Below are positions 6,664-8,585 of a stretch of DNA of 64,000 nt, piece after piece. How positions within the stretch are numbered: the stretch's first letter is position 1; every line of letters starts with the position of its first letter. This stretch comes from a virus. Made by a program: the position numbers and the translations under genes. The stretch is taken from UHGV virus genome UHGV-1351982. The stretch is one strand, 5' to 3'. A model generated the notes under the pieces. That model was not told where the DNA came from and ran no database searches. It was given only the letters and a program-made list of their open reading frames with translations.

Positions 6664-7341
6664 TTATTTGTTAATGCGTACAAAGTATCCTTTATAAGTT
6701 CCAATAATAGAGTTACCTAAGAATACTAGCCACATTGCTAGGATTGCGTAAGATGCACCCGTAGATTGAGCAGTTACAAGCCAAATGTACACAGTACCAA
6801 TGTTAATAGCAATCCAAATCAGCCATTGTTCAGCATATTGTTTGACCATAAGCCACATAGCAATCACACTACCAACCGCAGTAAATGCGTCAAGCATTGG
6901 GAATGGATCAGCGGTAGTAGCAAGGAAGCTGCCATATCCTAAAGTAGCTACTGCTAGAACCCCTAGAGTCAGCAAAGCTTGAGCTTTGGTCAGAATCTTA
7001 GTTGGAACATCTGGCAGATTACTTGGCTTATTTTTATGCCATAAGTACATTCCATAAAACTGCATAGGAACGTAGTATAGCAGGTTTAGTGCAGCGTTAC
7101 CATAAAGATCTGCATTTAAAGCCGTAATACCATAGGTAAGAACACCAACTAAGCCCCAAATATAGTTGGAAACACGTCCTTTTGCAACCAGAATAACACA
7201 AACCACGTTGGTTATTGCAGTAGCCCAATCTAGAGCCGTACCATTATAGTTTGCTAAACTAATAAAGGCGACTGCTATAAACAGCCACAGATATTCCAAA
7301 GGTTTCCAGTTTTTAAAATCATTTACAAGATAGTTAGTCAT
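6664..7341 (-). CDS. pnuC: nicotinamide riboside transporter PnuC family
   Basis: About 225 aa multi-pass membrane protein with PnuC-like W/Y-rich helices (YIWGLVGV, WLIWIAINIGTVYIW); GGAGAG RBS before the MTNYL start; stop of upstream gene abuts. Confidence 0.6.
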   Translation of the reverse strand: MTNYLVNDFKNWKPLEYLWLFIAVAFISLANYNGTALDWATAITNVVCVILVAKGRVSNYIWGLVGVLTYGITALNADLYGNAALNLLYYVPMQFYGMYLWHKNKPSNLPDVPTKILTKAQALLTLGVLAVATLGYGSFLATTADPFPMLDAFTAVGSVIAMWLMVKQYAEQWLIWIAINIGTVYIWLVTAQSTGASYAILAMWLVFLGNSIIGTYKGYFVRINK

Positions 7342-7342
7342 A

Positions 7343-8398
7343 TTAAAACTCTCCAACGTTAAAGTGATGAATCAGCCAGTCTACTGCGTTTACTGCTTCG
7401 TCCATACGAACCTTATAGTCCGGGGAGTCAATATATACAGTACGCCCTTCTGGGAACTGATTAGGAAATTCTTTCTTCATCTGCTCGAACAGTTCAGAAG
7501 TAATTGAACGATCGGAGTTAATACGTAAACCATCATCTACCCACTTAACAGTAGGTGCTAAAACTATAACTAAATCATAATGCTCTTCTTTAGCAATAGC
7601 TGTTACAACCGGATTTTTACGATGCTCGTAAAGTCTGTGATAAAACTCTGTAATGAAAGCATTTGTGTCTACAAACATGATCTTATTTGCAGTACGTTCT
7701 GCCTCAAACTCTAGCTCTTTGTGCCTGAATGCAATTTTATTATAGTCCTCGCTAGTCAGGAGTTCTTCATTACCAACTAGATCAACTTCGCAGTAAGTAC
7801 GACCATATTCTTCTACCCACGAAGTATTATATAATTTCGCAAGGTACTTTGTTAAAGTTGTTTTGCCGGAGCTTTCAGTACCAATGATAACAACCTTACG
7901 CACATAGTCTTTACGAACTACGCTAGGGAGAAATTCCCAATACTTCATAAGATCATTACGAATCATAGTAGCTGAGATTGGAACACGAGTCCGATCAGAG
8001 TCTACAATATAATGTCCAAACTTCGGCAGATATTTCTTATATTCTGCATCATAGTCTATTTCGCTAGAGAAAATGGTAATTTCAGGCAAATGGCCATAAT
8101 TATCATTCAGGATTCTAGCATATTCTGGCCAACCGTTTGGGTACTCTGGAATATCATCTTCAATAATGTACTCTACCGAAACATGCTCGATATCAGCATA
8201 AGTTTGCTCAAGCCAACGCAGTCGATTCTTTAACTGCAAGACTTCCTGATCACGTGTGTTTTGTTTATCCAGCCAGCGATTATCATGACTAACTACAACA
8301 ATAACTCGCTCACACATAGTTGCTGCTGTATTAATTAAGTTAATATGACCACGCGTTAATGGTGCGAACTTACCAATTACTAGACCAGTCTTAATCAT
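7343..8398 (-). CDS. NadR-like bifunctional NMN adenylyltransferase / ribosylnicotinamide kinase (no HTH domain)
   Basis: Start MIKTGLVIGKFAPLTRGH carries the nucleotidyltransferase H-x-G-H motif; later Walker A IIGTESSGKTTL; GAGAGAGG RBS; ORF-track N-terminal extension is the translated promoter. Confidence 0.6.
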   Translation of the reverse strand: MIKTGLVIGKFAPLTRGHINLINTAATMCERVIVVVSHDNRWLDKQNTRDQEVLQLKNRLRWLEQTYADIEHVSVEYIIEDDIPEYPNGWPEYARILNDNYGHLPEITIFSSEIDYDAEYKKYLPKFGHYIVDSDRTRVPISATMIRNDLMKYWEFLPSVVRKDYVRKVVIIGTESSGKTTLTKYLAKLYNTSWVEEYGRTYCEVDLVGNEELLTSEDYNKIAFRHKELEFEAERTANKIMFVDTNAFITEFYHRLYEHRKNPVVTAIAKEEHYDLVIVLAPTVKWVDDGLRINSDRSITSELFEQMKKEFPNQFPEGRTVYIDSPDYKVRMDEAVNAVDWLIHHFNVGEF

Positions 8399-8585
8399 AT
8401 TTGATTCCTCTCTCAAATTTATAAATATATTATACAGAGAATTTAGCATTCAAGCAATCGAATTTTTAAACTTTTTAGTGGAAAATCGCAGGGCACTTAA
8501 GGGTAGCAGGTGAGTGGTGAGGTCCAGAAATTGTTACCCCACTAAAAATCCGGGGGCAATTTTTAAAGACCCCTTGACATTTTCG
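7931..8585. repeat. 655-bp direct repeat, copy A (nadR-like 5' region, promoter and GC-rich upstream segment)
   Basis: Identical to 8651-9305 at a 720-bp offset by visual alignment. Confidence 0.8.
8429..8457 (-). promoter_or_regulatory. sigma70-like early promoter of the nadR-like/pnuC operon
   Basis: Minus strand: ttgctt, 17 nt, tataat, ataaatttgagagaggaatcaaatATG. Confidence 0.55.

What the first reader, a model, noticed from the sequence alone, without database searches (positions are those of the whole stretch)
6664..8457. PnuC plus NadR-like operon: a nicotinamide riboside to NAD salvage module
A PnuC-family transporter is followed by a protein carrying both an H-x-G-H nucleotidyltransferase motif and a Walker A kinase motif (NadR-like, without the HTH domain), under one early promoter. 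Together they would convert nicotinamide riboside to NAD early in infection. By analogy with described phage NAD-reconstitution pathways this could counter NAD-depleting host defences.
Basis: partly seen in the sequence, partly recalled or inferred. Interest (0 to 1): 0.6.

Follow-up and report, generated by a model that had tools for sequence, protein, structure and literature searches.

The report
Phage NadR–PnuC NAD salvage operon (NARP3)
This T5-like phage carries a two-gene operon that imports nicotinamide riboside and turns it into NAD+; it is real, but it is 97–98% identical to the "NARP3" anti-defence system characterised in a 2026 paper, so it is a confirmed and already known feature.

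Summary
On the minus strand of an Epseptimavirus-like (T5-like, Demerecviridae) window, one PN25-type promoter (8457–8429) is followed by a 351-aa NadR-like gene (8398–7343) with NMN adenylyltransferase and ribosylnicotinamide kinase domains and no HTH. A 225-aa PnuC transporter gene (7341–6664) and a hairpin (6656–6634) come next.

Corrections:
- NadR is transcribed first, then PnuC.
- The nucleotidyltransferase motif is T-R-G-H, not H-x-G-H.
- The true NadR start is ATG 8398, not 8449.

The two proteins are 98% and 97% identical to Bas30_86 and Bas30_87 of Escherichia phage TrudiRoth. Yan et al. (Sci Adv 2026, PMC13464706) showed that this pair, named NARP3, imports NR, converts it through NMN to NAD+, and rescues phages from Sir2-HerA and DSR1. 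Crystal structures exist (PDB 9x6f, 9x6h). Every functionally mutated residue is conserved here, and dN/dS is 0.02–0.05. The operon had already been flagged in 2024.

Still untested anywhere is loss of function in a native phage.

Immediately upstream, a 656-bp exact duplication with an N10 gap (8586–9305) creates a false truncated second NadR copy. It is most likely an assembly artefact.

The parts
8429..8457 (-). Promoter of the operon: -35 TTGCTT (8457-8452), 17-nt spacer, -10 TATAAT (8434-8429)
   Evidence: Read directly from the sequence. About 110 nt upstream of the ATG are identical in TrudiRoth and Sw2. It has the same -35, spacer length, -10 and leader as the published PN25 sequence (primer IM103 in PMC4447248). 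The generic sigma-70 scan does not report this pairing, because TTGCTT matches TTGACA at only 3 of 6 positions. That scan is also not above chance in this region. Function is inferred.
8399..8428 (-). Leader with RBS: ATAAATTTGAGAGAGGAA, 6 nt before the ATG
   Evidence: The 32-nt stretch from the -10 through the leader occurs 5 times in the window against 0 expected. It is also part of the 73-nt repeat family D2.
7343..8398 (-). NadR-like bifunctional enzyme, 351 aa: NMN adenylyltransferase (about residues 1-160) plus ribosylnicotinamide kinase (about residues 165-330), with no HTH
   Evidence: It is 98% identical to Bas30_86 (PDB 9x6f). All 17 residues named in the NARP3 paper are conserved.
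6664..7341 (-). PnuC-family nicotinamide riboside transporter, 225 aa
   Evidence: It is 97% identical to Bas30_87. The NR-binding residues N45, Q94 and N180 are conserved.
6634..6656 (-). Stem-loop (9 bp, 5-nt loop) 8 nt after the PnuC stop; probable terminator with a weak U tract
   Evidence: Folding gives -17.1 kcal/mol, z = -4.8. The equivalent feature is annotated as a terminator in phage Sw2. The terminator scan did not call it because there is no T run.
8586..9305 (.). Not part of the system: N10 gap (8586-8595), a repeated 55-mer (8596-8650), and an exact second copy (8650-9305) of 7930-8585. Together they create a false truncated NadR ORF (8534-9169) and a second copy of the promoter.
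   Evidence: Relatives span the region in about 2181 bp, against 2901 bp here. The junction was not found in three public collections.

Best explanation
This is a copy of the NARP3 NAD+ reconstitution operon of Epseptimavirus (T5-like) phages. Host RNA polymerase transcribes both genes from a strong PN25-type promoter. PnuC inserts into the inner membrane and lets nicotinamide riboside (NR) in. The kinase domain of the HTH-less NadR-like enzyme phosphorylates NR to NMN, which traps it. The adenylyltransferase domain then joins NMN and ATP to give NAD+. This refills the NAD+ pool when host defences such as Sir2-HerA or DSR1 destroy NAD+, so phage replication can continue.

Shown for the 97-98% identical Bas30 proteins: NR binding, the two-step catalysis, NAD+ restoration and rescue from defence.

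Inferred here: that this copy does the same, that it is expressed early as one transcript, and that it matters in the native phage.
For: - Domain architecture.
- Identity to the characterised pair: 345/351 and 219/225 residues identical to Bas30_86 and Bas30_87. Identity to PDB 9x6f is near-complete.
- Conserved residues in the enzyme: K10, F11, S37, E80, P84, G89, F110, S112, D115, V139, I141, K163, D164, R167, K168, E230 and D275 are all present.
- Conserved residues in PnuC: N45, Q94 and N180 are all present.
- Purifying selection against TrudiRoth: dN/dS is 0.018 for NadR and 0.053 for PnuC, at dS of 0.53 and 0.30.
- Experimental demonstration in PMC13464706.
- Operon signals: a conserved PN25-like promoter, a TAAtATG gene junction and a hairpin after PnuC.
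- Spread: DNA matches in 403 phage records, mostly Salmonella and Escherichia phages.
Against: - No experiment was done on this copy.
- The published anti-defence tests used plasmid expression with phages T7 and lambda. The authors state that the native phage context was not examined.
- The pathway needs external NR, and its availability in the natural habitat is unknown.
- Early timing and the transcription start are inferred from promoter similarity only. The generic promoter scan is not above chance.
- The protein scores below the trusted cutoff of TIGR01526, at 271 against 341 bits.
Confidence: 0.9

Rival explanations
1. The operon is housekeeping rather than counter-defence. It mainly keeps NAD+ available for the phage's own NAD+-consuming enzymes. 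The NMNAT domain would re-adenylate the NMN released by the phage NAD-dependent DNA ligase, and NR import would top up the pool. Defence escape would be a side benefit.
For: The same window encodes a split NAD-dependent DNA ligase (38198-39178 with adenylation and OB domains; 39378-40160 with HhH and BRCT domains) and a SIR2-family protein (29598-30428). A close relative carries the same annotations. It is established biochemistry that NAD-dependent ligases release NMN for every nick they seal. The native-phage role of NARP3 is untested.
Against: T5-like phages of the genus Tequintavirus, such as HildyBeyeler, lack the operon at the syntenic site. I did not check whether HildyBeyeler also encodes the NAD-dependent ligase. 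The operon therefore looks like an accessory module, not part of the replication core. Heterologous expression does rescue unrelated phages from NADase defences. The two roles are not mutually exclusive.
Confidence: 0.25
2. The module exists here as a real tandem duplication. A second promoter plus a truncated, NMNAT-only NadR fragment (8534-9169) would then be a genuine variant of the system.
For: The junction TTTTCG|AAATTCCC at 8649/8650 is written sequence, not Ns, so some reads probably contained it.
Against: - The two copies are 100% identical over 656 bp.
- The join carries a 10-N scaffold gap flanked by the same 55-mer twice. This is typical of a k=55 assembly-graph loop (my own knowledge of assemblers).
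- None of the listed relatives has the extra 720 bp.
- The junction is absent from the viral, metagenome and genome collections.
- The truncated ORF reads through the Ns.
Confidence: 0.08
3. The genes are an inert passenger recently captured from the host, with no function for the phage.
For: The host already has its own nadR and pnuC. PHROGs files both genes under 'moron, auxiliary metabolic gene'.
Against: - Purifying selection is strong, with dN/dS of 0.02-0.05.
- The module is conserved in hundreds of phage genomes.
- It has its own strong phage-type promoter.
- It is only distantly related to the solved bacterial NadR proteins: 191 bits to H. influenzae NadR against 794 bits to the phage protein. 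This is not a recent capture.
Confidence: 0.02

Closest known systems
NARP3 (Bas30_86/Bas30_87 of Escherichia phage TrudiRoth; Yan et al., Sci Adv 2026, PMC13464706; PDB 9x6f and 9x6h)
   Same: - Gene order, gene lengths (351 and 225 aa) and the 1-nt gene junction are the same.
- The proteins are 98% and 97% identical, and all residues shown to matter are conserved.
- The roughly 110 nt upstream of the NadR start are near-identical (2 mismatches in TrudiRoth).
- The position in the genome is the same: between the SPFH/Band-7 gene and the tRNA-Ser/tRNA-Met pair.

   Different: - Each protein has six amino-acid substitutions, none at tested residues.
- The DNA is only 91-93% identical.
- Two opposite-strand genes of unknown function (9375-10376 and 10399-10815) lie between the operon and the SPFH gene here, as in Sw2 and JNwz02. 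TrudiRoth lacks them.
- The closest whole relatives are Salmonella phages.
Bacterial NadR (H. influenzae 1LW7; E. coli and Salmonella NadR) with chromosomal PnuC (N. mucosa 4QTN)
   Same: - The two-domain NMNAT plus ribosylnicotinamide kinase architecture is the same.
- The (H/T)xGH, ISxTxxR, Walker A and WVDDGLR segments align.
- The PnuC fold family is the same, and the EQWxxWxxxN segment is conserved.
   Different: - There is no HTH repressor domain; the profile match starts at position 65 of 411.
- The relationship is only distant: 4e-55 for NadR and 1e-32 for PnuC.
- The genes are fused into one operon behind a phage promoter, whereas in E. coli they sit at separate loci under NadR regulation.
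NARP1 (Adps + Namat) and NARP2 (Nampt + NMNAT) (Osterman et al. 2024, 10.1101/2024.02.11.579819)
   Same: All are compact phage operons that rebuild NAD+ to escape NAD+-depleting defences. That paper already predicted the NadR-PnuC operon to be a further pathway.
   Different: The substrates and enzymes differ. NARP1 uses ADPR plus nicotinamide through ADPR-PP. NARP2 uses nicotinamide plus PRPP. The operon here uses imported NR and includes a transporter. The two genes contain no PRPS-like or Nampt-like domain.

Membership tests
NARP3 (phage NadR-like + PnuC-like operon) | Two adjacent, co-oriented genes: a NadR-like enzyme followed by a PnuC-like transporter | tested here: met
   8398-7343 then 7341-6664 on the minus strand, with a TAAtATG junction
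NARP3 (phage NadR-like + PnuC-like operon) | The enzyme has NMNAT and RNK domains but lacks the N-terminal HTH of canonical NadR | tested here: met
   CTP_transf_like covers residues 7-147 and AAA_28 covers 168-314. The NF005988 match covers profile positions 65-407 of 411, starting at protein residue 3.
NARP3 (phage NadR-like + PnuC-like operon) | Residues shown by mutagenesis or structure to be needed in Bas30_86 (K10, F11, S37, E80, P84, G89, F110, S112, D115, V139, I141, E230, D275 and others) and in Bas30_87 (N45, Q94, N180) | tested here: met
   All are identical at the same positions. The residue list comes from PMC13464706.
NARP3 (phage NadR-like + PnuC-like operon) | Close sequence relationship to the characterised pair | tested here: met
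   98% (345/351) and 97% (219/225) identity with no gaps
NARP3 (phage NadR-like + PnuC-like operon) | NR uptake, NR to NMN to NAD+ catalysis, and rescue from Sir2-HerA or DSR1 | not testable with these tools
   Shown only for the Bas30 proteins expressed from plasmids. Not tested in any native phage.
NadR family (NCBIfam NF005988 / TIGR01526) | Score above the curated cutoff | tested here: inconclusive
   NF005988 scores 254.4 bits against a cutoff of 201, which is met. The TIGR01526 equivalog domain scores 270.9 against 341.15, which is not met. The protein is a diverged phage branch of the family.
PnuC family (Pfam PF04973 / TIGR01528) | Score above the curated cutoff over the full domain | tested here: met
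   PF04973 scores 147.7 bits against 27.3, covering profile positions 2-171 of 175. TIGR01528 scores 120.5 against 42.45.
NARP1 / NARP2 | Adps (PRPS-like) plus Namat, or Nampt plus NMNAT | tested here: not met
   The two genes contain no such domains, and none are annotated in 49 kb of the 99%-identical relative JNwz02. The operon works towards the same end by a different route.

The most novel reading that the evidence does not exclude
In its native T5-like genome the operon may be less a dedicated anti-defence device than one half of a phage-owned NAD economy. It would recycle the NMN released by the phage's split NAD-dependent DNA ligase and feed the phage SIR2-family protein. In that case, its loss would impair replication even on defence-free hosts when NAD+ or NR is limiting. 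No one has tested a native-phage deletion, so this is not excluded.
Probability: 0.2. Interest if true: 0.35.

Novelty: already known. Interest (0 to 1): 0.12.

Why it matters
The module matters biologically. It is a metabolite-level way for phages to escape the many bacterial defences that destroy NAD+, and it could be useful for engineering therapeutic phages. That case has already been made and tested on near-identical proteins, so this window adds one more well-conserved copy. What remains open is whether the operon is needed in its native phage, and whether it serves defence escape or the phage's own NAD-dependent ligase. Neither question can be answered from sequence.

Tried and rejected
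- **Generic sigma-70 and terminator scan of 6000-9500.** It found 8 promoter-like sites against 10.2 expected and 2 terminator-like sites against 1.9 expected, so it is uninformative. It misses the TTGCTT-17-TATAAT pairing and the U-poor hairpin. I relied instead on conservation and on the comparison with PN25.
- **Exact search for the duplication junction.** There were no hits in viral contigs, metagenome contigs or genome contigs, so there is no independent support for a real duplication.
- **The 368-aa ORF starting at 8449 and the 230-aa TTG-start PnuC ORF.** Both are rejected as mechanical extensions. The annotated starts in relatives and the RBS positions favour 8398 and 7341.
- **The 211-aa ORF at 8534-9169 as a second NadR-like gene.** It is rejected because it reads through the N10 gap and is an exact copy.
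- **NARP1 or NARP2 membership.** Rejected on domain content.
- **Accession guesses.** MZ501074, MZ501108 and MZ501110 were not TrudiRoth. MZ501074 (HildyBeyeler) was still useful, because it shows a Tequintavirus without the module.
- **NADAR protein.** I did not verify in the window the NADAR-domain protein annotated in the relative JNwz02. The ORF I tested there is DUF7022.
- **Large searches.** I ran no large homology searches or structure predictions, because a 98%-identical solved structure exists.

Full report
**What is there**

The window comes from a T5-like phage. It has 18 tRNA genes clustered at 75-6209 and 12319. Its DNA is 99% identical to Salmonella phages of the genus Epseptimavirus, family Demerecviridae. 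The finding's interval is filled by two minus-strand genes.

- **NadR-like gene, 8398-7343 (351 aa).** It has a cytidylyltransferase-like NMNAT domain at residues 7-147 and an AAA_28 kinase domain at residues 168-314. It passes the NCBIfam NadR model NF005988 (254 bits, cutoff 201). The match begins at profile position 65 of 411, so the HTH repressor domain is missing. It scores below the stricter TIGR01526 cutoff (271 against 341 bits).
- **PnuC gene, 7341-6664 (225 aa).** It scores well above the PnuC cutoffs (PF04973 148 bits, TIGR01528 120 bits). It aligns to the solved PnuC structure 4QTN over nearly its whole length.
- **PHROGs.** The two genes are filed as 'nicotinamide-nucleotide adenylyltransferase' and 'PnuC-like nicotinamide mononucleotide transport'.

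- The genes are transcribed right to left, so NadR comes first and PnuC second. The NadR stop and the PnuC start are 1 nt apart (TAAtATG).
- The nucleotidyltransferase motif is T15-R-G-H18, the T variant of (H/T)xGH. The Walker A motif (G173-TESSGKT) and the ISATMIR motif are present.
- The mechanical ORF start at 8449 runs through the promoter. The start used in annotated relatives is ATG 8398, which lies 6 nt after GAGAGAGGAA.

**Operon signals**

The finding's right edge, 8457, is the first base of a -35 TTGCTT. A 17-nt spacer, a perfect -10 TATAAT (8434-8429) and the leader ATAAATTTGAGAGAGGAA follow.

- This is the same build as the T5 promoter PN25, as printed in primer IM103 of PMC4447248.
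- The PN25 homologue itself sits at 35700-35766 in this window.
- The 32-nt core from the -10 through the leader occurs five times in the window, against zero expected.
- About 110 nt upstream of the NadR start are identical or near-identical in phages TrudiRoth and Sw2, although the sequence further upstream differs.
- After PnuC there is a 9-bp hairpin at 6656-6634 (-17.1 kcal/mol, z = -4.8). Sw2 annotates the equivalent feature as a terminator, although its U tract is weak.
- The next gene has its own copy of the promoter cassette.

The generic consensus scans are not above chance here. The promoter and terminator are therefore supported by conservation and by similarity to PN25, not by that scan. 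That PN25 belongs to the early class is my recollection of the T5 literature. Expression timing was not measured.

**What it is**

A search of solved structures returned PDB 9x6f/9x6h with near-complete identity (794 bits). A literature search then found Yan et al., Sci Adv 2026 (PMC13464706). That paper describes this two-gene cassette from Escherichia phage TrudiRoth (Bas30_86 and Bas30_87) and names it NARP3. It reports the following:

- Bas30_87 is a trimeric NR-binding transporter.
- Bas30_86 converts NR to NMN to NAD+.
- Both genes together restore NAD+ and NADH pools depleted by Sir2-HerA.
- They raise T7 and lambda plating by 10^3- to 10^4-fold, and they also counter DSR1.
- Point mutants in either protein abolish the effect.

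I fetched TrudiRoth (MZ501109) and compared it with the window.

- The window's proteins are 345/351 and 219/225 identical, with no gaps.
- All 17 Bas30_86 residues and all 3 Bas30_87 residues named in the paper are unchanged.
- The DNA is only 91-93% identical, and almost all differences are synonymous. dN/dS is 0.018 and 0.053, so both genes are under strong purifying selection.

Osterman et al. 2024 had already pointed out the NadR-PnuC operon in BASEL phages as a probable further NAD+ reconstitution pathway. GenBank annotators have labelled these genes for years.

**Mechanism, and what is shown versus inferred**

- *Shown for near-identical proteins:* NR binding by PnuC, two-step synthesis of NAD+ by the NadR-like enzyme, recovery of the NAD+ pool, and escape from defence on heterologous expression.
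- *Inferred for this copy:* the same activities (very likely, given the identity), co-transcription from one PN25-type promoter, and early expression.
- *Not shown anywhere:* that the operon matters in its native phage. The authors state this limitation themselves.

**Rivals**

- **Housekeeping role.** The same window encodes a split NAD-dependent DNA ligase (38198-39178 and 39378-40160) and a SIR2-family protein (29598-30428). The operon might therefore also serve the phage's own NAD+ demand, including re-adenylating the NMN released by the ligase. This is compatible with the NARP3 reading and cannot be separated from it by sequence. The Tequintavirus HildyBeyeler lacks the operon at the syntenic site, which argues that it is an accessory module, not a core one.
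- **Inert passenger.** This is excluded by the selection pattern and by matches in 403 phage records.

**The duplication next door**

Positions 7930-8585 (the 5' part of the NadR gene, its promoter and part of the intergenic region) recur exactly at 8650-9305. The join consists of a 55-mer, ten Ns and the same 55-mer again (8531-8585, 8586-8595, 8596-8650). This produces a spurious 211-aa 'second NadR' ORF that reads through the Ns.

- The listed relatives cover the whole query region in about 2181 bp, against 2901 bp here.
- The junction sequence is absent from three public collections.
- The N10 gap flanked by identical 55-mers looks like an assembler's unresolved loop. This is my inference from how de Bruijn assemblers work.
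- A real tandem duplication in part of the phage population cannot be fully excluded, because the junction itself is written sequence.

**Verdict**

The feature is already known and experimentally characterised, so interest is low. The only open item of substance is the role in the native phage.

Noticed in passing
window 7930-8585 and 8586-9305: An exact 656-bp direct duplication is joined through a 55-mer, 10 Ns and the same 55-mer. It creates a false truncated NadR ORF (8534-9169) and a second promoter copy. Relatives lack it. It is probably an assembly or scaffolding artefact, and less likely a real tandem duplication in part of the population.
   Followed up: partly
window 6564-6595, 8405-8436, 9125-9156 (duplicate), 16332-16363 (all minus strand); 35728-35759 (plus strand): A promoter-plus-leader cassette (TGTATAATAnATTnATAAATTTGAGAGAGGA) is repeated in front of several genes. 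The copy at 35700-35766 matches the published T5 PN25 promoter sequence almost base for base and precedes the homologue of the 'D2 protein' (35767-36471). A looser 73-nt family also includes 6190-6262.
   Followed up: partly
window 29598-30428 (+), 38198-39178 (+), 39378-40160 (+): The phage encodes its own NAD+-using proteins: a SIR2-family protein, and an NAD-dependent DNA ligase split into two ORFs (adenylation plus OB; HhH plus BRCT) about 200 nt apart. These are relevant to what the NAD salvage operon is for.
   Followed up: partly
window 9375-10376 (+) and 10399-10815 (+): Two genes of unknown function are transcribed divergently from the NadR promoter region. The first (333 aa, phrog_8119) has a His/Asp/Glu-rich N-terminus, a Gly-rich stretch and a Gln/Ala-rich C-terminal part. 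The second (138 aa, phrog_7894) is very Gln-rich. Neither has a Pfam hit. Both are present in Sw2 and JNwz02 but absent from this position in TrudiRoth.
   Followed up: partly
window 6261-6575 (-): A 104-aa protein with an N-terminal signal-peptide-like segment (phrog_6894, no Pfam hit) lies directly downstream of the operon, with its own PN25-type promoter. Sw2 annotates the homologue as 'Signal Peptide'.
   Followed up: no
L002 (Escherichia phage HildyBeyeler, MZ501074) 7152-9014: In this Tequintavirus, the site between the SPFH/Band-7 gene homologue and tRNA-Ser holds a single 519-nt ORF instead of the NadR-PnuC operon. The operon is therefore a variable accessory module within Demerecviridae.
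   Followed up: partly
window 5830-6015 (-): A 61-aa protein with two CxxC pairs (zinc-ribbon-like) lies in the tRNA cluster. Its homologue in JNwz02 is annotated 'antitermination protein Q', which looks like an over-annotation.
   Followed up: no
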